Below are positions 27,371 through 47,560 of a DNA stretch of 64,000 nucleotides, piece by piece. A program made the position numbers and the translations under genes. Position 1 is the stretch's first letter. Each line of letters starts with the position of its first letter. Location: assembly GCF_044324785.1 (NCBI RefSeq), contig NZ_CP172127.1; one strand, written 5' to 3'. Source of the DNA: Escherichia coli. Lineage in GTDB: Bacteria > Pseudomonadota > Gammaproteobacteria > Enterobacterales > Enterobacteriaceae. Below the pieces are notes generated by a model. That model saw only the letters and a program-made list of their open reading frames with translations. It searched no databases and was not told the origin of the DNA.

Positions 27371-28132
27371 TTACAGCAGACGACGCGCCGCTTCCACCAC
27401 GATTTTCACCGCTTGGCTTTCAGTTTGTTTCATCGTCTCAGCATTCGGGATCTCTTGCTGGGTGCGGTTAACGATAACACCCGCTACCATACCGGCACGC
27501 AGGCCCTGACTTGCACACATGGTCAGCAGGGTTGCAGATTCCATTTCATAGTTCATTACGCCCATCGCCTGCCACTCTTCCATAGAACCTTTAAAGTGAC
27601 GAACTACGCGACCAGAGTAAGTATCGTAACGTTCCTGGCCTGGGTAGAAGGTATCAGAAGAAGCCGTCACGCCAACGTGAGTCGTCGCGCCAATGGATTT
27701 CGCCGCTTCAACCAGCGCAGTCGTACATTCGAAATCAGCGACAGCCGGGAATTCCAGCGGTGCGAAGTGCAAGCTCGCGCCATCCAGACGAACAGACGCC
27801 GTGGTAACCAGGACATCGCCAACATTAATATGCGGCTGAATAGCGCCCGTTGTACCGATACGCAGGAAGGTGCGAATGCCCAGCTGTGCCAGCTCTTCAA
27901 CAGCAATAGAGGTAGACGGGCCGCCGATACCGGTAGAGCAGACGATAACAGGTTTACCATCCAGCTCTGCACGCCAGGTGGTGAATTCGCGGTGAGATGC
28001 CAGCTTAACCGGCTTATCCATCAGCGCGGCGATCTTTTCCACACGATCCGGGTCGCCAGGGACGATGGCAAGCGTAGCCCCTTGTAAATCGTTTTTAGTG
28101 AGGCCGAGATGAAAAACATCAGACTTGGACAT
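27371..28132 (-). CDS. udp: Uridine phosphorylase
   Basis: [31 protein letters not shown]... 253 aa. Confidence 0.9.
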
Positions 28133-28393
28133 ATACAACTCCTCTGTGAATCGGTTTAGTCAGAAGAAGCAAAAAGACACTTTACCGAAGGGTTTAACAT
28201 TTTTTCGTGATACTCATCACCATGACGCAAATGCGTTGCATAAATTTACCCACCAAAAGTGATGCAAATCACATAAATCACTCTTCATTCTGCAGGACTG
28301 CATAAAAGATGAGCCGATTCAGGCAATGTGATTTGTTGCATGCTGACTATAGTTAACATTGCGCAACATTTTTATAAGGGTACGGAGAATACC

Positions 28394-29206
28394 ATGGCAA
28401 CAACACAACAATCTGGATTTGCACCTGCTGCATCGCCTCTCGCTTCGACCATCGTTCAGACTCCGGACGACGCGATTGTGGCGGGCTTCACCTCTATCCC
28501 TTCACAAGGGGATAACATGCCTGCTTACCATGCCAGACCAAAGCAGAGCGATGGCCCACTGCCAGTGGTCATTGTAGTGCAGGAAATTTTTGGCGTGCAT
28601 GAACATATCCGCGACATTTGTCGCCGTCTGGCGCTGGAGGGGTATCTGGCTATTGCACCTGAACTTTACTTCCGCGAAGGCGATCCGAATGATTTTGCCG
28701 ATATCCCCACGTTGCTTAGCGGTCTGGTAGCAAAAGTGCCTGACTCGCAGGTGCTGGCCGATCTCGATCATGTCGCCAGTTGGGCTTCCCGCAACGGCGG
28801 CGATGTTCATCGTTTAATGATCACCGGATTCTGCTGGGGTGGGCGCATCACCTGGCTGTATGCCGCGCATAATCCACAGCTAAAAGCCGCGGTGGCGTGG
28901 TACGGCAAGCTGACAGGCGATAAGTCGCTGAATTCACCGAAACAACCTGTTGATATCGCAACCGATCTTAACGCGCCGGTTCTCGGCTTATATGGTGGTC
29001 AGGATAACAGCATTCCGCAGGAGAGCGTGGAAACGATGCGCCAGGCGCTGCGGGCTGCTAATGCGAAAGCAGAGATTATCGTGTACCCGGATGCCGGGCA
29101 TGCATTCAACGCTGATTATCGCCCGAGCTATCATGCCGAATCTGCGAAAGACGGCTGGCAGCGAATGTTGGAATGGTTTAAGCAGTATGGTGGGAAGCGG
29201 AGTTAG
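28394..29206 (+). CDS. dlhH: Dienelactone hydrolase-family protein (YsgA/DlhH)
   Basis: ATG at 28394 (MATTQQSGFAPAASP...); alpha/beta hydrolase with GFCWGG nucleophile-elbow-like motif. Confidence 0.85.
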   Translation: MATTQQSGFAPAASPLASTIVQTPDDAIVAGFTSIPSQGDNMPAYHARPKQSDGPLPVVIVVQEIFGVHEHIRDICRRLALEGYLAIAPELYFREGDPNDFADIPTLLSGLVAKVPDSQVLADLDHVASWASRNGGDVHRLMITGFCWGGRITWLYAAHNPQLKAAVAWYGKLTGDKSLNSPKQPVDIATDLNAPVLGLYGGQDNSIPQESVETMRQALRAANAKAEIIVYPDAGHAFNADYRPSYHAESAKDGWQRMLEWFKQYGGKRS

Positions 29207-29598
29207 TTTCCTCTTAGTCTATATTTGAGATGGTGAGTGAACGAGTGCGTTTTGCTGCCATCTCTGTCCCCCAAAAAATAATCAGTATGAATTGATTGGA
29301 GATTACGACTCCGCTATTTGACCTTAAGAAAGTCGGCAAGTCATAGTCATAAATGAGTCTCTTCAATGGCAGACACCTTAGAGATTTACCATCAACTCCC
29401 ATTCACAAACAAACATTAATTATTATCAACACATTCACATTAATTATAAATCATCTCAGACCTTCCTGATAAAAAGATATTAAAGTGAAACATTTTGTTT
29501 TTCACATTTTAGTTCATCACTTTTAGGCGTAAATAAAGGTAAAAAAACAACAATACTATTTCTCTTTCACAAAAGAATTAACAAAAGGTTTTTCAAGG

Positions 29599-30747
29599 AT
29601 GAGTGATATTATTTACCTGAACATAACCGGAGAACAACAAGGATGTATTTCCTCTCGTTGTGGAACGAGCGCATCAATAGGTAATCGCTGGCAGATTGGC
29701 CATGAAGATGAAATCTTCGCGTTCTCGCTCTCTAATAGTATTACGAATACAGGCAAAGGGTCACAATTGCATGGCCTTAGTTTCTGTAAATTGATTGACA
29801 AAAGCTCCCCGTTACTTATTAACGCTATTAACAATAACGAGCAGTTGTTCATGGAGTTTGACTTCTATCGGATCAATAGATTTGGTCGATGGGAGAAATA
29901 TTACAACATTCAACTTCGCGGCGCGCTCTTATCAGCAATCAATCACCTGTTTACTGAGAACAATCTGGATACAGAAACCATCACTGTCAGTTATGAATAT
30001 ATACTCTCCAGGCATCTGATTGCTAATACTGAATTTAGTTATTTGGCATTTCCCGATAACTACAACCGTCTGTTTATACCACGGCCAAAAACTAAAGATG
30101 ATAATGGCCTCAAAACACTCAATAGTAAAGCGGTTGGCAGACTGCTTGCTGCTGGCGGCATATACAATGGGAATATCGAAGGATTCAGGGAAACAGCAAA
30201 CAAGTTGGGAGGAGATGCACCTGCTGGTTACGATCAAGTTATGGATAACAAAGGGTTACTCATCGCTGGTGCTTCAATAGTTGCTGGAGTTGTTCTGGGA
30301 AGAATGAGATTCCCTGATTTGGAATCACTTGAGCATTTCGGAGCCAGAGGAGCAGTATCAGGAAGACCATTTAATCCCGACCTTGCCGGTGGTCCAATAG
30401 AAAATCTGACGACAGATGGCGTAACAATCAACAGGGAAGGTATCGCTATTGTTGAAAAACACATAGCCAGATTTGGTCATGACCCTGTAAATGAAGTGAT
30501 GATCAATAGACTGAAAGACATTGAGAAAGGAAAAATCCCCCCAGAACAAGTAGATCTTAACTTCTATACTCATGAATGTCGGGAATATCAGCGTTACTGT
30601 AATCTTGGTTGGGAAACAGGACAACCTGATGGTGACGCAGGCTATGCACTCTGGAATCATACGCATACTGCTACTCTAGAAGATTATAAACTTAAGGGAG
30701 AACTTAATGACTTATACCACCAGGATGCACTTGACTATGATAACTGA
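29599..30747 (+). CDS. Hcp (T6SS tube protein, TssD) fused to a ~230-aa C-terminal extension; putative Hcp-ET-type effector, toxin domain unassigned
   Basis: 382-aa ORF with RBS AAGGA; N-terminal ~150 aa show Hcp1-family hallmarks (IYLNITGEQQG...TGKGSQLHGLSFCKLIDKSSPLLINAI...FMEFDFYRIN...EKYYNIQLRGA...TITVSYEYI); C-terminal part has no motif I recognise. Confidence 0.7.
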   Translation: MSDIIYLNITGEQQGCISSRCGTSASIGNRWQIGHEDEIFAFSLSNSITNTGKGSQLHGLSFCKLIDKSSPLLINAINNNEQLFMEFDFYRINRFGRWEKYYNIQLRGALLSAINHLFTENNLDTETITVSYEYILSRHLIANTEFSYLAFPDNYNRLFIPRPKTKDDNGLKTLNSKAVGRLLAAGGIYNGNIEGFRETANKLGGDAPAGYDQVMDNKGLLIAGASIVAGVVLGRMRFPDLESLEHFGARGAVSGRPFNPDLAGGPIENLTTDGVTINREGIAIVEKHIARFGHDPVNEVMINRLKDIEKGKIPPEQVDLNFYTHECREYQRYCNLGWETGQPDGDAGYALWNHTHTATLEDYKLKGELNDLYHQDALDYDN

Positions 30748-30982
30748 AACTGAAATTAACGTACTGAAAGTTATGGCTGAGAAAGATATAAACTGGAACT
30801 GGATGAATCTCGATCGCACACTATCTATAAGGCAAATTCCAGGATTCGGTAATGTTGTTAACATTGTTAACAAATTAGCTAACGAGGGTTTGGTTATTAT
30901 TGAGGATAGCGGACATAAGTCTATGCCTCACTACCACGTTACTGAAAAGGGATACAATCTCGTGAAAAGTGAGAATAAATAA
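30737..30982 (+). CDS. Small cytoplasmic protein, candidate cognate immunity protein (possible winged-helix fold)
   Basis: ATG at 30737 overlaps the 3' end of the Hcp-fusion gene by 11 nt (translational coupling); 81 aa, no signal peptide. Confidence 0.5.
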   Translation: MITETEINVLKVMAEKDINWNWMNLDRTLSIRQIPGFGNVVNIVNKLANEGLVIIEDSGHKSMPHYHVTEKGYNLVKSENK

Positions 30983-31128
30983 CGTAGCGTTGATTACTGA
31001 ACAAATCGCTCAGGATTATATTTTGCGAAAAAAATGATTCGGTTATTTCTGTGTCTGAACGGCCGCAGATAGCAAAATGGCTTCCGGTGATGGAAGCCAT
31101 CAGATTATTGGCAAAGTGCGTGTTGTTC

Positions 31129-31225
31129 ATGCCGGATGCGGCGTGAACGCCTTATCTGGCCAACTAAATCTTGAAAATTCAATAAATTGAAGAAATTATG
31201 TAGGCCTGGTATCAGGCAGTTTTGC
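31129..31225. repeat. REP/BIME palindromic units
   Basis: GCCGGATGCGGCGTGAACGCCTTATCTGGCC and GTAGGCCTGGTATCAGGC downstream of metE. Confidence 0.75.
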
Positions 31226-31268
31226 CTCTTTCATCGTACTGCAATTTACAGTGACTCGTTAATACTCA

Positions 31269-33530
31269 TCACCCCCGTCGCAAATTCTGCGCCGCCTGCA
31301 CCATGTTCGCCAGTGCCGCGCGGGTTTCTGGCCAGCCGCGCGTTTTCAGGCCACAGTCCGGGTTTACCCACAGACGCTCTGCCGGAATGCGTTTTGCCGC
31401 TTTCTTCAGCAGGGCTTCAATCCATTCCACGCTCGGTACGTTTGGCGAGTGAATGTCATAGACGCCTGGACCGATTTCATTCGGATAATCAAACTCTTCG
31501 AACGACTCCAGCAACTCCATGTCAGAACGCGAGGTTTCGATGGTGATGACGTCTGCGTCCAGCGCCGCAATCGAATCCATGATGTCGTTGAACTCGCAGT
31601 AACACATGTGAGTGTGGATTTGTGTGTCATCTTTCGCCACGGCGGCGTTGATACGGAAAGCCTCCACGCCCCACTGGAGATAGGCATCCCAGTCGCTGCG
31701 ACGCAGCGGTAAACCTTCGCGCAGTGCCGGTTCATCAATCTGGATGATGCCAATTCCAGCGGCTTCCAGGTCCGCCACTTCATCACGCAGCGCCAGCGCA
31801 ATTTGTTTGGCGATGGTTTCACGGCTGACATCTTCACGCGGGAACGACCAACAGAGTATGGTAACCGGCCCCGTCAGCATCCCTTTCACCGGTTTGTCGG
31901 TCAGCGATTGTGCATATTTCGCCCACTCCACGGTAATTGGTGCCGGGCGGCTAACGTCACCAATGACAATCGGCGGCTTCACGCAGCGGGAACCGTAGCT
32001 CTGTACCCAACCGTTTTGCGTAAAGACAAAACCGTCGAGATGCTCGCCAAAGTATTCCACCATGTCATTACGCTCGGCCTCGCCATGCACCAGCACATCC
32101 AGACCTAAACGTTCCTGCTCAACAATGGCCTGCTTGATATGTTCCGCAATGCCCGTACGGTAGTTGTTGGCGTCGAGATTACCCTTTTTGAAATCCAGAC
32201 GCAGGGTACGAATTTCCGTGGTTTGCGGGAAGGAACCAATCGTGGTGGTCGGCCACGCGGGCAGTTTAAAACGCGCACGCTGGGCTTCAGCACGCACTTC
32301 ATAGACATTCGCACGCTGACTGTCCTGGGCGGTGATCGCCGCCAGACGCTTTTCTACCGCCGGATTATGGACACGGGTAGAGTGACGACGCGCCTGAATC
32401 GGAGCGCTCCACTCTGCCAGAGCTGCCGTATCACCACTGTTCAGCGCATCGCGCAGTAGTGCCAGTTCGTGACATTTTTGTAGAGCGAAGGCAAACCAGC
32501 TTTTCACTTCTGCATCAAGACGCGTTTCCACGCTCAGGTCGATGGGGCTGTGCAGCAGTGAGCAGGAAGATGCCACCCACAAATCACGTTTGCCGACAAA
32601 GTCCTTAATTTGCGCATATTTCTCGGTAAGATCGGCGCGCCAGACGTTACGACCATTGATAAGACCCGCAGACAGTAGCCAGTCTGAAGGCAGACGCTTG
32701 TGCAGTTCAGCAACGTCATCTTTACCATGTACAAGGTCCACATGCAGCCCCTGAACAGGCAGCGCAGTAATCGTGTCGAGATTTGGCGTTACGCCTTCAA
32801 AATAGGTAGTCAGCAGCAGTTTCACCTGGCCCTGGAGCGCGTCGTAAGCGGGTTTGTATGCGTCCAGCCACGCCTGCGGCAGTTCCAGAACCAGCGCGGG
32901 TTCGTCGATCTGTACCCACTCAATGCCGCGTTTTGCCAGTTCTGCCAGCACTTGCTGATAAACCGGCAGAATGTCGTTCAGCAGGCTAAGGCGATCAAAC
33001 TGTTCACCTTTCACTTTACCCAGCCACAGGTAGGTAATCGGCCCCAGCAGCACAGGTTTCACCTTGTGGCCCAGCGCCAGCGCCTCGTCCACTTCCTCCA
33101 GCAGCTGCGTCCAGGTCAGTTTGAACTGTTGGCCTTTAACGAACTCCGGCACCATGTAGTGATAGTTGGTGTTAAACCATTTGGTCATTTCCGCTGCCGC
33201 CGCAGGTTCGCCAGTCGGTGCACGTCCACGACCAATACGGAACAGGGTGTCGATATCTACCGAACCATCGTTGTTCTGATGACGTGGCGGAACATTACCC
33301 AGCAGCAGACTGGTGGTCAGTACATGATCGTACCAGGCAAAATCGCCCACCGGCAGCAGGTCGATACCCGCTTGCTTTTGTTGATCCCAGTGACGAGCAC
33401 GCAATTCACGCCCTACTGCCAGCAGTTCTTCACGCGTGGAGTTCCCCGCCCAATAACTCTCTTGCGCTTTTTTCAGCTCGCGACGCAGGCCAACGCGAGG
33501 GAAACCGAGGGTGTGATTAAGAATTGTCAT
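31269..33530 (-). CDS. metE: Cobalamin-independent methionine synthase MetE
   Basis: 753-aa [30 protein letters not shown]... Confidence 0.95.
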
Positions 33531-42678: not shown

Positions 42679-42729
42679 TAACGTAAAAGCAGGTAAACTG
42701 CTGTTACCAATTAAAAATGAGTATTCCCG

Positions 42730-43620
42730 ATGGATGCAAAACAAACGCGGCAGGGCGTATTACTCGCTCTTGCCGCTTATTTTATTTGGGGTATTGCGCC
42801 AGCGTACTTCAAGCTGATTTACTACGTGCCCGCCGATGAGATCCTGACGCATCGCGTGATCTGGTCGTTTTTCTTTATGGTGGTGCTGATGAGCATCTGC
42901 CGCCAGTGGTCCTATTTAAAAACGCTGATTCAGACGCCACAGAAAATTTTTATGCTGGCAGTCTCTGCCGTGCTGATTGGTGGCAACTGGCTACTGTTTA
43001 TCTGGGCGGTGAACAATCACCATATGCTGGAAGCGAGCCTTGGTTACTTTATTAACCCGCTGGTGAACATTGTGCTGGGGATGATTTTCCTCGGCGAGCG
43101 ATTCCGCCGGATGCAATGGCTGGCGGTGATTCTGGCGATATGTGGCGTGTTGGTTCAGTTGTGGACTTTTGGTTCACTGCCGATTATCGCGCTGGGGCTG
43201 GCGTTTAGTTTTGCCTTCTACGGCCTGGTACGCAAGAAGATTGCTGTTGAAGCGCAAACCGGCATGTTAATCGAAACTATGTGGTTGCTGCCCGTGGCGG
43301 CGATTTACCTGTTTGCTATTGCCGACAGCTCAACCAGCCATATGGGGCAAAACCCGATGTCACTGAATTTACTGCTGATCGCCGCCGGGATTGTCACTAC
43401 CGTACCGCTGTTGTGTTTTACTGCGGCTGCGACACGCCTGCGTCTCTCAACGTTAGGCTTTTTTCAGTACATTGGCCCGACGCTGATGTTCCTGCTGGCT
43501 GTGACGTTTTATGGTGAAAAACCGGGTGCCGATAAGATGGTGACCTTCGCCTTTATTTGGGTGGCGCTGGCAATTTTTGTGATGGATGCGATTTATACGC
43601 AGCGTAGAACGTCCAAATAA
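42730..43620 (+). CDS. rarD: EamA/RarD-family membrane transporter
   Basis: 296-aa polytopic ORF. Confidence 0.85.
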   Translation: MDAKQTRQGVLLALAAYFIWGIAPAYFKLIYYVPADEILTHRVIWSFFFMVVLMSICRQWSYLKTLIQTPQKIFMLAVSAVLIGGNWLLFIWAVNNHHMLEASLGYFINPLVNIVLGMIFLGERFRRMQWLAVILAICGVLVQLWTFGSLPIIALGLAFSFAFYGLVRKKIAVEAQTGMLIETMWLLPVAAIYLFAIADSSTSHMGQNPMSLNLLLIAAGIVTTVPLLCFTAAATRLRLSTLGFFQYIGPTLMFLLAVTFYGEKPGADKMVTFAFIWVALAIFVMDAIYTQRRTSK

Positions 43621-43714
43621 AAAATAAATATATTCTGAAAAAATATGCCGACTCTTGCATGAGAGTGGGCATATTGCCATGCTGACAGGAGACTCACACA
43701 AGGATGTAAAATTT

Positions 43715-44095
43715 ATGTTACGTATGTTTATCCCAACATCTAATGGTAAGATTTCCAGACGCCGTTATATATTTTCATTTATTTTAATAAATTTCATTTT
43801 TGCCTTTCTTATTATCTTTTTTAACGATGGGGAAGCAGATTTTCTTGTTATAGTCTCTACCATCGTACTCCATTATCTCGTCATCAACTTGAATTGCCAA
43901 CGACTCCGTGATAGTGGTTTCGTCTATATAAAAACTTATGTTTTTGGTACATTAGCAGTATATATCATCTCTATCATCACAATGATAGCCGAAGATTTTG
44001 CCTGTTCAGGCAATGGTTCGATGATTTTTTTGATTTGTTATTTTTCCACTTTCAGTATGCTAATGCTTGCACCTACTGATTCATCAAAACAATAG
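43715..44095 (+). CDS. yigF: Small inner membrane protein YigF (DUF2628)
   Basis: [22 protein letters not shown]..., AT-rich, two TM segments. Confidence 0.75.
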
Positions 44096-44108
44096 TTATG
44101 GAGTATTT

Positions 44109-44489
44109 ATGAGTAAGGAATATATGAACGATGGTTCATTAAGTGAAAAATGGAAATACCGATTTAATTTTTATGATCAACATGGCTTTCCAGGATTCTG
44201 GGGGGCAACACCAGAATATAAAGCAGCATTTAAAACATTAAAAGTAAGACAACGATTAACTATTCAAATGAATTTCATTGCTTTCTTCTGTTCCTGGATC
44301 TATTTATTTGTTCTGGGATTATGGAAAAAAGCAATTATAGTTCTATTACTTGGCATTCTATCTCTATTTGTTGGTGCACTAATTGGCGTTAACATTCTGG
44401 GAATTGCCGTAGCAGCCTATGTTGCTGTTAACACGAACAAATGGTTTTATGAGAAAGAGGTAAAAGGGTTAAATACCTGGAGCCTTTGA
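44109..44489 (+). CDS. yigG: Small inner membrane protein YigG (DUF2628)
   Basis: MSKEYMNDGSLSEKWKYRFNFYDQHGF...; paralogous architecture to yigF. Confidence 0.75.
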   Translation: MSKEYMNDGSLSEKWKYRFNFYDQHGFPGFWGATPEYKAAFKTLKVRQRLTIQMNFIAFFCSWIYLFVLGLWKKAIIVLLLGILSLFVGALIGVNILGIAVAAYVAVNTNKWFYEKEVKGLNTWSL

Positions 44490-44529
44490 ATAACAGGTGG
44501 CTTAGCCAGGCTAAGCCACCGCCTTCTTT

Positions 44530-44672
44530 TTACAACCAGTTCTTCCGCTTAAAGTACAGATACGGTGCCAGGCCCGCGAGGATCATAAAGATAATCGCGC
44601 CAGGGTAGCCGAAACTCCACTTCAGTTCCGGCATAAACTCAAAGTTCATGCCATAGCTGGAGGCAATCCGCG
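44530..44672 (-). pseudogene. Diverged duplicate of the corA 3' end (last ~47 codons)
   Basis: ~143 bp at ~95% identity to 46241-46383; encodes the same ...[44 protein letters not shown] with only synonymous changes; homology begins exactly at the stop codon. Confidence 0.8.
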
Positions 44673-44856
44673 TAGGAAAAAGTTTCCTAATCGGTAAATT
44701 CAACATTTTGTTATTAACAATGAGCAAGACCAATCATTAACGACGTTCTCTTCAGAGATGTAATGAAAAAATGTGAAGTGTACTTCTTTTCTAAATATTT
44801 TTTTACCCTAGCATTTGTTCTCGAATTGATATTGAGCTTAAATATAACTAAGGCAA

Positions 44857-45711
44857 ATGCAAATGAATAACATATTACTTCCGCCAATTAATATTCCCTG
44901 TACACTTTTCGAAACTATTAGTTTATTCGATGATTTTTCTGCTGATGATATGCAATATGGTGATATGGTAGAACAAGACTTTCTCTCACTCGGCCTAAGC
45001 GATATCTCAGCAAAAGTTGATCCTTACCGACTTATTAAATACCATTTCCCTGGCCCAGGTTCTATTAATGTTGCTTTTAGTGCCTCAAGTTCCGGAACAA
45101 AAATATCACAACGTGAATGCACTGATATTTTATTTGCAGAAATGAAAGAACTAGCAAAAATGTTTTCCTTTTTTGGACAATATAAAACACTTATCGAAGA
45201 TCTGATTGAAAATTTTAGATATGGAAATGGCAGCAATTTTCATAGCCAACAATTAAATTTATCTTTTCATGAAAAAATAAATAAATATGGTTATAATAGT
45301 CCAATACGAATAATCAAAGAATGTATCGAAAATGGCATTAATTCAACTCCCTCGACAGGATACCAACCTCTTATCCTGCAAAGCATTAAAACCAAATTAC
45401 TTTCATCAAGACTAAATAAATTTAATGACTTCAAGGACAGTTTTAATGGCTTAGGAATCAGTGTTCATGATATTTCAGCTCAAAAAATATCTCTTTTAAG
45501 TTTTCAAAAATACGCTATAGGATGGAGTGCAACAATTCATTTTGTAGCACAGGACCACTTCGGTCTCGATGTAACTGATATCAAAAACAAGACTTATAGC
45601 AAATATAGATTTTTTCGCATATGGTTCTTTTTACAACGGCATAAAGACTTTGCTTTCAAACCTTTTTTCACCAATTTTAACACTATAGAAAGAATCGAAA
45701 ATTATCTATGA
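44857..45711 (+). CDS. Hypothetical 284-aa protein, AT-rich, no signal peptide; candidate effector/toxin-like protein
   Basis: Intact ORF in low-GC DNA inside the corA-repeat-bounded insert; stop overlaps the start of the next gene (ATGA). Confidence 0.5.
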   Translation: MQMNNILLPPINIPCTLFETISLFDDFSADDMQYGDMVEQDFLSLGLSDISAKVDPYRLIKYHFPGPGSINVAFSASSSGTKISQRECTDILFAEMKELAKMFSFFGQYKTLIEDLIENFRYGNGSNFHSQQLNLSFHEKINKYGYNSPIRIIKECIENGINSTPSTGYQPLILQSIKTKLLSSRLNKFNDFKDSFNGLGISVHDISAQKISLLSFQKYAIGWSATIHFVAQDHFGLDVTDIKNKTYSKYRFFRIWFFLQRHKDFAFKPFFTNFNTIERIENYL

Positions 45712-46199
45712 AAAGCAAACTCCAGAAAATTATATTATGTTTATTTCTTCTATGCTGCATCTATAATTTATGGACATTGCGTCCTGTACAGATTTTGTAT
45801 ACATACTCTGATGCTGGCAATTCAGTCTTTCTGGTCGTTGATCATCTGCCATGGACTGACAGCGATAAAATAAATTGGTATCTGAAGCATCAGAATGAAA
45901 TTAAAAATCAACATCCCCTACCAGAAGGTAGTTGGCATACCTGGTATGTCATTGATATCGGTAATGGCTTCACTGACTATAAAAAATATATTGAAGGGCC
46001 GTATGAAGATCTCTACTGTTTCCCGACAATTAAGAGCAATGATAATTGCATCGTGAAAAATTACTTAATGGTTATTAATGAATACCCTTATCGTAACACT
46101 CATATTGGTATTAACGATTTTACTGAGTATCAATTAACACAAGAAAATAAAATAGAGCGAGTTTTCAATCCGCATGACTTTAAAAAAGACAATTTTTAG
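45708..46199 (+). CDS. Hypothetical 163-aa protein with N-terminal signal peptide/membrane anchor; candidate periplasmic immunity-like partner
   Basis: N-terminal hydrophobic KIILCLFLLCCIYNLW; translationally coupled to the upstream gene. Confidence 0.5.
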   Translation: MKSKLQKIILCLFLLCCIYNLWTLRPVQILYTYSDAGNSVFLVVDHLPWTDSDKINWYLKHQNEIKNQHPLPEGSWHTWYVIDIGNGFTDYKKYIEGPYEDLYCFPTIKSNDNCIVKNYLMVINEYPYRNTHIGINDFTEYQLTQENKIERVFNPHDFKKDNF

Positions 46200-46240
46200 A
46201 AATAAGCCGGATAAAAAAATAGCTTTATCCGGCACTCATA

Positions 46241-47191
46241 TTACAACCAGTTCTTCCGCTTAAAGTACAGATACGGTGCCAGGCCCGCGAGGATCATAAA
46301 GATAATCGCGCCTGGGTAGCCGAAACTCCACTTCAGTTCTGGCATAAACTCAAAGTTCATCCCGTAGCTGGAAGCAACCAGCGTCGGTGGCAGGAACACC
46401 ACGGATACCACCGAGAAGATTTTGATGATGCGGTTCTGCTCGATGTTGATAAAGCCCATAGCCGCCTGCATCAGGAAGTTCACCTTCTGGAACAGGGATT
46501 CGTTATGCGGCAGCAGGGATTCGATATCTCGCAGGATTTCACGCGCCTGCTCCAGTTGCCCACCCGGTAAGCGTGCTTTACGTACCAGGAAGTTGAGCGC
46601 GCGCTGGGTATCCATCAGACACAGGCGAACTTTCCAGCCGATATCTTCCAGTTCCGCCAGCGTGGAGAGCGCCTCGTCGTACTCATCGCCCTGATGCCCT
46701 TCCATAATTACCCGGCTCAACTGCTCCAGGTCGCTGTAGATATTTTCAATTTCATCTGCCAACTGTTCGATTTTGGTTTCGAACAGATCCAGCAGCAGCT
46801 CGTAGGCATTACCGTCTACCATCGACTGGCTACGGGCACGCATACGATACAGACGGAATGCAGGCAATTCACGCTCACGCAGAGTAAACAGACGACCATC
46901 ACGGATGGTAAATGCCACAGTGGAGTTACCGGCGTGATCTTCCGCATCTTCAAAGAAGAAGAAGGAGTGAATATGCAGGCCGTCATCGTCTTCAAAGAAA
47001 CGTGCCGATGCTTCGATGTCTTCCAGTTCCGGGCGGGTTGCCAGGCTCTGGCCAAGTTCAGATTGTACGCGCAGTCGCTCGTCGTCGTCCGGTTCGACAA
47101 GATCAATCCATACTGCATTTACAAGGGGTTGTGACTCTTCGACTTCCAGCCGGGTCAGTCGGTTATTTTCCAGTTGAAATGCGCTCAGCAT
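46241..47191 (-). CDS. corA: Magnesium/cobalt transport protein CorA
   Basis: [19 protein letters not shown]..., 316 aa, GMN motif ([12 protein letters not shown]). Confidence 0.95.
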
Positions 47192-47560
47192 GACCGGGAC
47201 TCCCAATGCTTAAAATATCGGACAGTTCGGTGGGCACACAGAAACAAATTGGGTTTCAGACCATTAAACAGCCTGACTCAGCGCGACGGGAAAAATTGAG
47301 GTCGCTGACAACCGCTAAGGCTATCAGCAAAAAGGGATAGCCTTAGGAGTTGATCCTGGATGACAGGATAGTGAGCCAGTATCTACTGGGTGTGTCCAAG
47401 GCGAATGTCCTCTTAGAGTGATCGTGCGCGCATGTTACGCCAGCAAAATTTTGCCGTCAACACGCAACAGAACACCACAGAACAATAGTTGAACTTCGCG
47501 CTTTTTGGTACTCGTCAAGGTCGCTAACAGGATAAAAAAATCCCACATCCAGGACCTATA

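What the first reader, a model, noticed from the sequence alone, without database searches (positions are those of the whole stretch)
29207..29598. Very AT-rich ~390-bp leader upstream of the Hcp-fusion gene
Long A/T tracts (for example TTAATTATTATCAACACATTCACATTAATTATAAATCATC) contrast with the flanking ~52% GC core genes. This composition is typical of horizontally acquired DNA and of H-NS-silenced promoters, so the island is probably transcriptionally repressed under standard conditions. An inverted repeat GAGATGG...CCATCTC at ~29228-29265 may terminate dlhH.
Basis: seen in the sequence. Interest (0 to 1): 0.3.

Follow-up and report, generated by a model that had tools for sequence, protein, structure and literature searches.

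The report
AT-rich promoter region of Hcp-toxin cassette
This very AT-rich 392-bp stretch is the upstream control region of a small, horizontally acquired type VI secretion toxin/immunity cassette inserted between ysgA and metE in some E. coli, and it is an ordinary example of foreign DNA that the silencer H-NS probably coats.

Summary
Window 29207-29598 is 32.7% GC against 51.2% for the whole window, and only 1.5% of equal-sized windows are as low. It is the 5' part of a 2,070-bp low-GC insert (29199-31268). The insert replaces the 39-bp bidirectional terminator that K-12 has between ysgA and metE. It carries an Hcp-toxin fusion gene and a small putative immunity gene.

The "leader" has two parts:
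- **Distal half (29207-29400, 40.7% GC).** This is junction DNA found only in this allele, and it contains a real hairpin.
- **Proximal half (29401-29598, 24.7% GC).** This travels with the gene. It is found in 848 of 5,426 complete E. coli genomes. It shares conserved blocks, notably TAAAGTGAAACRTTTTRTTT about 100-117 bp before the start codon, with Hcp-toxin cassettes in Citrobacter and Salmonella at other loci.

No conserved RNA structure or Rfam match was found, so this is a promoter/operator region.

H-NS silencing is plausible. Published ChIP-seq lists the homologous CFT073 cassette as H-NS-bound. This allele itself has not been tested.

The hairpin has no U-tract, so it is not a canonical terminator.

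Verdict: an ordinary new member of a known kind, of low interest.

The parts
28328..29206 (+). ysgA/dlhH (dienelactone hydrolase family). Its last three codons are rewritten by the insertion: K-12 ends ...GGKKSL*, the window ends ...GGKRS*.
   Evidence: Pfam DLH E=1.5e-77; RefSeq annotation of matching genomes; K-12 compared with the window sequence.
29199..31268 (+). 2,070-bp low-GC insert (39.3% GC). It replaces the K-12 ysgA-metE terminator spacer.
   Evidence: Homology to K-12 stops at GGTGGGAAG| on the left and resumes at the metE stop codon on the right. GC. >=80% of the 28900-31400 query is covered in 378 genomes.
29207..29400 (+). Distal half of the 'leader'. It is junction DNA specific to the ysgA-adjacent allele, 40.7% GC, and probably has no specific function apart from the hairpin.
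   Evidence: Found in 387 of 5,426 genomes, at the ysgA junction in the records listed. There is no second copy beyond a split match in a few genomes, and no diverged copy. It is absent from the CFT073-type allele. The 62-aa minus-strand ORF 29214-29402 has only amino-acid-changing differences among three alleles and no Pfam hit.
29227..29265 (+). Hairpin just after the ysgA stop codon. It is not a canonical intrinsic terminator. It may be a 3'-end stabiliser or pause site for ysgA mRNA.
   Evidence: dG is -17.3 kcal/mol on the + strand and -10.6 on the - strand, because G-U pairs make it strand-specific. The 106-nt fold has z = -2.5. No U-tract follows, and it is not called by the terminator scan.
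29401..29598 (+). Proximal half: the cassette-borne promoter/operator region and 5' UTR, 24.7% GC.
   Evidence: Found in 848 of 5,426 E. coli genomes: 387 at >=95% identity and 461 at 60-80% (the listed ones 71-73%; the CFT073/B2 type). It aligns with the leaders of Hcp-toxin genes in Citrobacter and Salmonella at other loci.
29457..29476 (+). Conserved block 0 (CAGACCTTCCTGATAAAAAG; family pattern AGA..N..CCT.A..AA).
   Evidence: Alignments of 10-13 leaders.
29481..29500 (+). Conserved block 1, TAAAGTGAAACATTTTGTTT. It is the best-conserved element of the leader family and a candidate core promoter or operator. TAAAGT at 29481-29486 could be a -10 element, or GTGAAA at 29485-29490 could be a -35 element.
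   Evidence: It is nearly invariant in 12 leaders and recognisable in a 13th, CFT073 c0132. It occurs once in the window with <=3 mismatches, against 0 expected. In one-genome-per-species data, all 4 enterobacterial exact hits lie about 100-115 bp upstream of an Hcp-toxin homologue.
29503..29513 (+). Block 2. It reads CTATATAC in Citrobacter and Salmonella and has diverged here. It includes the candidate -10 TTTAGT at 29508-29513, placed 17 bp after GTGAAA.
29525..29543 (+). Block 3 (AGGCGTAAATAA), overlapping an exact CpxR-consensus match GTAAA-N5-GTAAA at 29529-29543.
   Evidence: One search finds 2 matches in the window against 0.09 expected. 10 of 5,000 composition-matched shuffles of the leader contain such a box. 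The first half-site is conserved; the second is conserved only in the E. coli metE-site alleles.
29585..29588 (+). Shine-Dalgarno AAGG, 10 nt before the ATG. It lies within the conserved AAAAGG(A) block.
   Evidence: Sequence; alignment.
29599..30747 (+). 382-aa Hcp (TssD) protein with a C-terminal extension of about 230 aa. It is an Hcp-ET-type effector whose toxin domain is unclassified.
   Evidence: Pfam T6SS_HCP residues 6-135, E=2.5e-14. TIGR03344 E=2.9e-36. 690 relatives. No PDB sequence match for the C-terminal part.
30707..30982 (+). Small ORF of 91 aa from the first ATG, or 81 aa from the ATG at 30737. It overlaps the end of the toxin gene and is the putative immunity gene.
   Evidence: ORF list. 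An 84-89-aa ORF is found immediately downstream of the full-length homologues examined and of two related Hcp-toxin genes. No family hit. The immunity function is inferred.
31125..31226 (.). REP-like element(s) and a weak terminator-like hairpin (31204-31217 followed by a T-run) at the right end of the insert, before the metE stop codon.
   Evidence: Sub-threshold Rfam matches to naRNA4 and ES036; terminator scan.
31269..33530 (-). metE, convergent with the cassette, intact.
   Evidence: Pfam Meth_synt_1 and Meth_synt_2.

Best explanation
The region is the upstream non-coding DNA of an orphan Hcp-toxin (Hcp-ET-type) effector plus immunity cassette. The cassette sits in a 2.07-kb low-GC insert at the convergent ysgA/metE junction.

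The region has two modules:
- **Distal, about 194 bp.** This is allele-specific junction DNA. Its only notable feature is a hairpin right after the ysgA stop codon. The hairpin replaces the strong bidirectional terminator that K-12 has here, but it lacks a U-tract.
- **Proximal, about 198 bp (24.7% GC).** This belongs to the cassette. It carries conserved DNA blocks about 140 to 60 bp before the start codon. These blocks most likely hold a weak sigma-70 promoter and an operator, followed by an unstructured 5' UTR of about 80-105 nt and a Shine-Dalgarno sequence.

Because of its extreme AT content, the proximal module and the adjacent AT-rich genes are probably coated by H-NS (with StpA). The cassette would then be silent in standard culture until a counter-silencing signal arrives.

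**Shown:** the composition, the insert boundaries, the two-module structure, the conserved blocks and their exclusive association with Hcp-toxin genes, the absence of conserved RNA structure, and H-NS binding of the CFT073 homologue (from the literature).

**Inferred:** the promoter position, H-NS binding on this allele, silencing, and the identity of any activator.
For: - **Composition and boundaries:**
- **Presence/absence polymorphism:**
- **Two modules:** the distal part is in 387 genomes only. The proximal part is in 848 genomes in two alleles about 72% identical to each other.
- **Family-wide trait:** in 13 Hcp-toxin genes from E. coli, Citrobacter and Salmonella, at four different loci and with different toxin domains, the 200 bp upstream are 23-30.5% GC. 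They share blocks 0-3 at the same distance from the ATG.
- **Specificity of block 1:** all 4 exact enterobacterial hits in 100,044 species genomes precede an Hcp-toxin homologue.
- **Own promoter:** in L009 and L016 the upstream neighbour is on the opposite strand, so the cassette must have a promoter of its own.
- **Not a structured RNA:** no Rfam hit and no conserved structure (-0.86 kcal/mol, no compensatory pairs).
- **H-NS:** CFT073 ChIP-seq lists c4754, c4755 and hcp_2 as bound (0.45, 0.35, 0.58; cut-off 0.07), but not the flanking metE, hxlB, ptsG or tkt (gene identities checked by order and length). c0132 is 'H-NS bound, RNAP weak'.
- **Precedent:** H-NS represses the orphan hcp2B operon and T6SS2 in APEC (PMC5874247).
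Against: - No transcription start, expression data or H-NS binding data exist for this allele.
- Sigma-70 candidates anchored on the conserved blocks score poorly in a crude weight matrix (3.6-4.0 bits).
- The generic promoter scan finds no more sites than shuffles do (7 against 6.2).
- The leader has no match with two or fewer mismatches to the H-NS high-affinity 10-mer, which I recalled from memory. Looser matches are no more frequent than in the rest of the window.
- The CFT073 evidence is per gene, not for the intergenic leader, and that leader is only about 72% identical.
- ysgA is co-oriented and has lost its canonical terminator, so some expression could come from read-through.
Confidence: 0.7

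Rival explanations
1. The stretch is an intercistronic spacer of a ysgA-hcpET-immunity operon. The cassette has no meaningful promoter of its own here and is expressed by read-through from ysgA, because the insertion removed the K-12 terminator.
For: All three genes are on the + strand. The K-12 bidirectional terminator (dG -20.9) is gone. No terminator-like site is found between 29207 and 29598 on the + strand. The hairpin lacks a U-tract.
Against: The same conserved upstream blocks occur where the upstream neighbour is divergent or unrelated (L009, L016, L011, CFT073), so the cassette brings its own control region. A 392-nt untranslated, H-NS-prone stretch is a likely site of Rho-dependent termination (inference). 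The -17 kcal/mol hairpin directly after the stop codon suggests a 3' end for ysgA mRNA.
Confidence: 0.15
2. The whole 392 bp is functionless, decaying spacer left by the insertion event. On this view it is AT-rich only through mutational bias and foreign origin.
For: The distal half has no relatives outside this allele. Its ORFs look non-coding. No RNA family match was found. No consensus promoter was found.
Against: The proximal half contains blocks that are conserved across genera while the surrounding positions are randomised. Block 1 is exclusively associated with Hcp-toxin genes in Enterobacteriaceae. The Shine-Dalgarno sequence and start codon are conserved.
Confidence: 0.08
3. The proximal leader is a CpxR-activated promoter. 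Envelope stress would counter H-NS through the exact GTAAA-N5-GTAAA box at 29529-29543, as reported for the hcp2B promoter of APEC. This is compatible with the best explanation and adds a specific activator to it.
For: There is an exact consensus match, rare even in composition-matched shuffles (10 of 5,000). Phosphorylated CpxR binds the hcp2B promoter through a GTAAA(N)4-8GTAAA site (PMC6534853). The first half-site lies in conserved block 3.
Against: The second half-site is not conserved in the Citrobacter, Salmonella or E. coli ggt-locus leaders. About ten consensus sequences were tried, so the corrected significance is only about 0.02. The site lies downstream of the candidate promoter elements, which is an unusual position for an activator.
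Confidence: 0.15
4. The leader encodes a structured cis-regulatory RNA (riboswitch or thermosensor) or a small RNA.
For: The distance between the conserved blocks and the start codon is long. The window sequence has local inverted repeats such as AAAGTGAAA/TTTCACATT.
Against: There is no credible Rfam match in 29207-29598; the only overlapping hit is a eukaryotic snoRNA model at E = 8.3. RNAalifold on 9 leaders gives -0.86 kcal/mol with no compensatory pairs. The window's inverted repeat is not conserved in relatives.
Confidence: 0.03

Closest known systems
H-NS/StpA-bound Hcp-toxin cassette next to metE in E. coli CFT073 (c4754, c4755, hcp_2; Hustmyer et al. 2022, PMC9765446)
   Same: It is a homologous cassette at the metE end of the same hotspot. 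The proximal leader is homologous (about 72% identity, 23% GC) and has the same blocks 0-3. The genes are listed as H-NS-bound while the flanking core genes are not.
   Different: In CFT073 the hcp-toxin gene is a pseudogene. The cassette lies inside a larger island, with hxlB rather than ysgA as the upstream neighbour. The distal 194 bp with its hairpin is absent. The published values are per gene, not for the leader.
H-NS-repressed orphan hcp2B-vgrG2-xmtU/V operon and T6SS2 of APEC (PMC5874247), with CpxR activation (PMC6534853)
   Same: It is an orphan hcp-led effector/immunity operon in E. coli. It is repressed by H-NS in rich medium and has a CpxR-box promoter.
   Different: It is a different Hcp type and a different operon: a separate VgrG plus PAAR toxin, not an Hcp fusion. 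I did not compare the promoter sequences, because the hcp2B promoter sequence was not retrieved.
Hcp-ET family (Hcp with C-terminal extension toxins; Ma et al. 2017, as summarised in PMC6730261)
   Same: It has an N-terminal Hcp domain, a C-terminal toxin extension and a small downstream immunity gene. It is widespread in Enterobacteriaceae.
   Different: The toxin domain here matches no Pfam or PDB sequence. I therefore could not assign it to ET1-ET5. As far as the papers I read go, the published work does not describe the upstream region.
K-12 ysgA-metE bidirectional intrinsic terminator
   Same: It occupies the same genomic position, immediately after the ysgA stop codon.
   Different: K-12 has a 12-bp GC-rich stem flanked by A- and T-runs (dG -20.9). 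The hairpin here is built on G-U pairs, is strand-specific and has no U-tract.

Membership tests
Xenogeneic AT-rich DNA silenced by H-NS | AT content clearly above the host genome average over hundreds of bp | tested here: met
   32.7% GC (proximal half 24.7%) against 51.2%; lowest 1.5% of windows.
Xenogeneic AT-rich DNA silenced by H-NS | Horizontally acquired, variable presence among strains | tested here: met
   Absent from K-12 and most genomes. 387 of 5,426 carry this allele and 461 more carry a diverged one.
Xenogeneic AT-rich DNA silenced by H-NS | H-NS occupancy in vivo (ChIP) | not testable with these tools
   Only the CFT073 homologue has data: it is bound at 0.35-0.58 against a cut-off of 0.07.
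Xenogeneic AT-rich DNA silenced by H-NS | Derepression in hns (or hns stpA) mutants | not testable with these tools
   No expression data exist for this locus. The analogy to hcp2B/T6SS2 is the only support.
Xenogeneic AT-rich DNA silenced by H-NS | High-affinity nucleation motif (TCGATAAATT-like; consensus recalled from memory) | tested here: not met
   No site with <=2 mismatches. The count at <=3 mismatches (2) is below the window mean of 2.9. This motif is not obligatory for H-NS binding.
Rho-independent (intrinsic) terminator | Stable stem-loop directly after the gene | tested here: met
   29227-29265, dG -17.3 kcal/mol, 20 nt after the ysgA stop codon.
Rho-independent (intrinsic) terminator | U-rich tract immediately 3' of the stem | tested here: not met
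   The + strand continues GTCCCCCAAAAAA and the - strand AAATATAGAC. It is not reported by the terminator scan.
Hcp-ET effector/immunity cassette (the unit this leader serves) | N-terminal Hcp/TssD domain fused to a C-terminal extension | tested here: met
   PF05638 covers residues 6-135 of 382. TIGR03344 E=2.9e-36. About 230 residues extend beyond it.
Hcp-ET effector/immunity cassette (the unit this leader serves) | Cognate immunity gene immediately downstream | tested here: inconclusive
   A conserved small overlapping ORF (81-91 aa) follows, as in the homologues. It matches no family and no function was tested.
Hcp-ET effector/immunity cassette (the unit this leader serves) | T6SS-dependent delivery and antibacterial toxicity | not testable with these tools
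   No T6SS cluster was noticed in the parts of the window examined. This feature needs experiments.
CpxR-regulated promoter | GTAAA-N5-GTAAA tandem repeat in the promoter region | tested here: met
   Exact match at 29529-29543; 10 of 5,000 leader shuffles contain one.
CpxR-regulated promoter | Site conserved in orthologous promoters, and binding by phosphorylated CpxR | tested here: not met
   The second half-site is lost in the Citrobacter, Salmonella and E. coli ggt-locus leaders. Binding cannot be tested here.
Cis-regulatory RNA leader (riboswitch, thermosensor, attenuator) | Conserved secondary structure with covariation, or a match to a known RNA family | tested here: not met
   No credible Rfam match; the only hit overlapping the leader is a snoRNA model at E = 8.3. 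The consensus fold is -0.86 kcal/mol with 0 compensatory pairs.

The most novel reading that the evidence does not exclude
The nearly invariant 20-bp element TAAAGTGAAACRTTTTRTTT, together with its flanking blocks, sits about 100-117 bp upstream of Hcp-toxin genes in E. coli, Citrobacter and Salmonella, whatever the locus or toxin domain. It could be the operator of a dedicated, still unidentified regulator that couples expression of orphan Hcp-toxin cassettes to activity of the main T6SS or to a competition signal. That would make it a family-wide counter-silencing switch rather than merely a conserved core promoter.
Probability: 0.2. Interest if true: 0.45.

Novelty: new member of a known kind. 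Interest (0 to 1): 0.2.

Why it matters
The practical value is modest. The analysis delimits a small T6SS effector/immunity islet at a known E. coli insertion hotspot. It shows that the islet's AT-rich control region is a cassette-borne module shared across genera. It gives concrete coordinates for promoter, H-NS and CpxR experiments: blocks at 29457-29543, and the CFT073 leader at NC_004431.1 4521491-4521974. If orphan Hcp-toxin cassettes are silent under laboratory conditions, competition assays in rich medium will underestimate their activity. The conserved element is a handle for finding the inducing signal.

Tried and rejected
- **Rfam** scan of 28000-32000 at a permissive threshold found nothing credible in the leader, only REP-like sub-threshold hits at 31125-31207.
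- **RNAalifold** on 9 leaders found no conserved structure.
- **Generic promoter/terminator scan** found no more sites than shuffles.
- **A home-made sigma-70 weight matrix** gave no consistently strong promoter.
- **Consensus checks, recalled from memory,** for Fur, sigma-54, CRP, Cra, IHF, PhoP, OmpR, RcsAB and Fis were all no better than composition-matched shuffles. By eye, block 1 in the Citrobacter leaders fits the asymmetric Cra consensus RSTGAAWCSNTHHW. The E. coli version has 2 mismatches, which is no better than chance, so I dropped the idea.
- **H-NS 10-mer motif:** not enriched.
- **Coding potential of the distal half:** the 62-aa minus-strand ORF and the 38-aa plus-strand ORF have no family hits, and their differences between alleles all change amino acids.
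- **Distant blastn of the distal half** found no paralogues or remnants elsewhere in E. coli.
- **CFT073 per-gene ChIP sheet (1A)** was truncated in the stored supplement before the metE region. I used sheet 1E instead, without seeing its column headings. I take the first numeric column to be wild-type H-NS occupancy, on the basis of Text S1.
- **Toxin domain:** there was no PDB sequence match. An AlphaFold model from a 20-sequence alignment had mean pLDDT 56, too poor for a fold search, so none was run.
- **The original Hcp-ET paper** (Ma et al. 2017) is not held in the library.

Full report
**Observation.** The stretch 29207-29598 lies between the stop codon of ysgA/dlhH (28328-29206, + strand) and the ATG of a 382-aa ORF (29599-30747, + strand). 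Its GC content is 32.65%, against 51.2% for the 64-kb window. That is about 3.4 sd below the mean of all 392-bp windows, and only 1.47% of such windows are as low. The quoted A/T-rich 40-mer is at 29416-29455. The GAGATGG/CCATCTC repeat is at 29228-29234 and 29258-29264. The distal half (29207-29400) is only moderately AT-rich at 40.7% GC, while the proximal half (29401-29598) is extreme at 24.7%. The low GC also continues through the downstream genes to about 31200; the insert as a whole is 39.3% GC.

**What the surroundings are.** The 382-aa protein has an N-terminal Hcp/TssD domain (Pfam PF05638 over residues 6-135, E=2.5e-14; TIGR03344, E=2.9e-36). It also has a C-terminal extension of about 230 residues with no family or PDB sequence match. 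An overlapping small ORF (30707 or 30737 to 30982) follows, as in the homologues examined, and is presumably the immunity gene. metE (31269-33530) converges from the other side. The window is E. coli, 99.9% identical to strain N3 over this region.

**Insert boundaries.** In K-12 the ysgA and metE stop codons are 39 bp apart, separated by a strong bidirectional terminator of dG -20.9 kcal/mol. In the window, homology to K-12 ends inside the last ysgA codons: K-12 ends ...GGKKSL* and the window ends ...GGKRS*. Homology resumes exactly at the metE stop codon. This defines a 2,070-bp insert at 29199-31268. The ysgA/metE junction is a known hotspot ('GR 29 metE..ysgA' in PMC12928451). CFT073 and ST131 carry much larger islands there, and ST131 has yet another breakpoint in the last ysgA codons.

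**The 'leader' has two parts.** The full 392 bp occurs at >=95% identity in 387 of 5,426 complete E. coli genomes. The distal 202 bp occurs in those same 387 genomes, at the ysgA junction in the records listed, with no diverged copy elsewhere. The proximal 198 bp occurs in 848 genomes: the same 387, plus 461 at 60-80% identity, the listed ones at 71-73%. In that second group (CFT073, ATCC 25922, clone D i14 and others) the cassette sits at the metE end of a larger island. Its upstream neighbour there is hxlB on the opposite strand. The proximal half therefore travels with the hcp-toxin gene, and the distal half is junction DNA.

**Comparison across genera.** Full-length relatives with 65-82% protein identity occur in Citrobacter and Salmonella. 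Their genes lie at other loci, between yhhX/yhhY-like genes and ggt, or next to tusA/dctP, and sometimes in tandem arrays of cassettes. Hcp-toxin genes with different toxin domains occupy the ggt locus in E. coli, C. freundii and S. enterica. In all 13 leaders examined, the 200 bp upstream are 23-30.5% GC.

The alignments show blocks conserved at a fixed distance from the start codon, within otherwise randomised sequence:
- block 0 at window 29457-29476;
- block 1, TAAAGTGAAACRTTTTRTTT, at 29481-29500, the best conserved;
- block 2 at 29503-29513, which reads CTATATAC in Citrobacter and Salmonella and has diverged in the window;
- block 3, AGGCGTAAATAA, at 29525-29536;
- an AAAAGG(A) Shine-Dalgarno block.

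A degenerate block 1 (TAAGTGAAAACGTT) is recognisable at about -117 even in the leader of the distant CFT073 Hcp-toxin gene c0132 at the aroP-pdhR locus.

**Specificity of block 1.** I scanned one genome from each of 100,044 species for AAAGTGAAACRTTTTRTTT. The scan gave 65 hits. Sixty-one are in unrelated, mostly AT-rich taxa, with no Hcp homologue detected anywhere in the fetched locus. All four enterobacterial hits (C. werkmanii, C. youngae, Citrobacter sp. NCU1 and E. coli) lie about 100-115 bp upstream of an Hcp-toxin homologue. The element occurs only once in the window, even when 3 mismatches are allowed.

**DNA element or RNA element?** The only Rfam hit overlapping the leader is a eukaryotic snoRNA model at E = 8.3. 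RNAalifold on nine leaders gives essentially no consensus structure: -0.86 kcal/mol and no compensatory pairs. The conservation is therefore at the DNA level, which points to a promoter or operator.

I could not pin down the promoter. The generic scan finds no excess of sigma-70-like sites (7 against 6.2 expected). My crude weight matrix gives only weak candidates tied to the blocks: CAGACC-18-TAAAGT, with the -10 at 29481-29486, and GTGAAA-17-TTTAGT, with the -10 at 29508-29513. The best family member is GTGAAA-16-TATACT in a Citrobacter leader. In TAAAGT, the second (A) and last (T) positions are invariant in the 12 close leaders. The fifth position varies (G, A or C), and the first is G in the two Salmonella leaders. 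This fits a -10 element but is not proof. Either model puts the start at roughly 29493-29520, giving a 5' UTR of about 80-105 nt (inference).

Where the upstream neighbour is divergent (L009, L016, CFT073), the cassette must use its own promoter.

**Regulators.**
- *H-NS.* Direct data exist only for the homologue. In the CFT073 ChIP-seq study (PMC9765446), the table of H-NS-bound genes lists c4754 (258 nt), c4755 (690 nt) and hcp_2 (294 nt), with occupancies 0.45, 0.35 and 0.58. The scale runs from 0 to 1 and the cut-off is 0.07. Gene order and lengths identify these as the immunity gene and the two halves of the tssD pseudogene next to metE. The neighbours metE, hxlB, ptsG and tkt are not in the list. 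I did not see the column headings of that sheet. I take the first numeric column to be wild-type H-NS occupancy, on the basis of Text S1.
- *A second CFT073 example.* c0132, another Hcp-toxin gene, has an H-NS IP/input ratio of 20.6 and is classed 'H-NS bound, RNAP weak'.
- *Precedent.* In APEC, H-NS represses the orphan hcp2B operon and T6SS2 (PMC5874247).
- *Limits.* The window's leader shows no enrichment of the H-NS 10-mer motif and only a moderately raised TpA frequency (0.074 against 0.045). The case for H-NS on this allele therefore rests on composition and homology.
- *CpxR.* The leader contains an exact CpxR consensus, GTAAA-N5-GTAAA, at 29529-29543. Only 10 of 5,000 composition-matched shuffles contain one, and phosphorylated CpxR binds the hcp2B promoter through such a site (PMC6534853). 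However, the second half-site is not conserved beyond the E. coli metE-site alleles, and this was one of about ten consensus sequences I tried. The others (Fur, sigma-54, CRP, Cra, IHF, PhoP, OmpR, RcsAB, Fis) were no better than chance.

**The hairpin.** Positions 29227-29265 fold into an extended stem of dG -17.3 kcal/mol on the + strand RNA. On the - strand the value is only -10.6, because several pairs are G-U. No U-tract follows on either strand, and the terminator scan does not report it. It is therefore not a canonical intrinsic terminator. It may stabilise or define the ysgA 3' end, or pause RNA polymerase ahead of Rho-dependent termination in the untranslated AT-rich stretch (inference). 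The hairpin is identical in the three alleles examined, so covariation cannot be assessed. Because the K-12 terminator has been lost, some read-through from ysgA into the cassette cannot be excluded.

**Verdict.** The region is the control region of a horizontally acquired Hcp-toxin/immunity cassette. It consists of allele-specific junction DNA with a non-canonical hairpin, followed by an extremely AT-rich promoter/operator module that is conserved across the family. It is unproven on H-NS for this allele, and wrong or unsupported on the terminator. This is a new member of a well-known kind: xenogeneic, AT-rich, H-NS-targeted T6SS accessory DNA. The only mildly new observation is the conserved 20-bp element specific to Hcp-toxin leaders. 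Interest is low.

Noticed in passing
window 43541-46361: A second low-GC islet (down to 27.6% GC) lies between rarD (42730-43620) and corA (46241-47206, - strand). It encodes a DUF2628 protein, a DUF3289/YPO3983-family protein (44857-45711) and a DUF943 membrane protein (45708-46199). The CFT073 homologues c4739 and c4738 are H-NS-bound (0.64 and 0.63) in PMC9765446.
   Followed up: partly
window 29190-29206; L001 1790-1850; L004 5280-5310: The last 3-8 codons of ysgA differ among three alleles of the ysgA/metE hotspot: K-12 ...KQYGGKKSL*, the window ...KQYGGKRS*, and ST131 ...TQYGVKK*. The island breakpoints therefore fall inside the 3' end of the gene.
   Followed up: partly
L006 108-4399; L008 16-4403 (Citrobacter, ggt locus): Hcp-toxin cassettes occur in tandem arrays with extra orphan immunity-like genes (Imm35 and others) between them. 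This suggests toxin-domain swapping by recombination between the conserved leader and Hcp-domain sequences.
   Followed up: no
window 30100-30744: The C-terminal toxin domain has no Pfam or PDB sequence match. A 229-aa Salmonella protein with no Hcp domain matches 61% of the query at 73% identity and is named 'HNH endonuclease' by NCBI. Proteins of 348 aa in Pantoea, Klebsiella and Lonsdalea with no Hcp domain on record also match more than half of the query; I did not check which part. The AlphaFold model was too poor to use (pLDDT 56).
   Followed up: partly
window 31125-31207: REP-like sequence (sub-threshold Rfam naRNA4 and ES036 matches) lies inside the right end of the insert. The insert therefore contains typical E. 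coli repetitive DNA and is not simply recent foreign DNA.
   Followed up: no
window 42683-42697: The only other exact GTAAA-N5-GTAAA (CpxR consensus) in the window lies 33 bp upstream of the rarD start codon.
   Followed up: no
window 29353-29469 (+) and 29214-29402 (-): There are two open frames in the distal leader, of 38 aa and 62 aa. The 62-aa frame stays open in three alleles, but all 6 residue differences change the amino acid and there is no family hit, so it is probably non-coding.
   Followed up: yes
L022, L023, L035 (Nitrosomonas): The block 1 search pattern hits Nitrosomonas genomes three times, twice in one genome, with no Hcp homologue in the fetched loci. These may belong to an unrelated repeat in that genus.
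   Followed up: no
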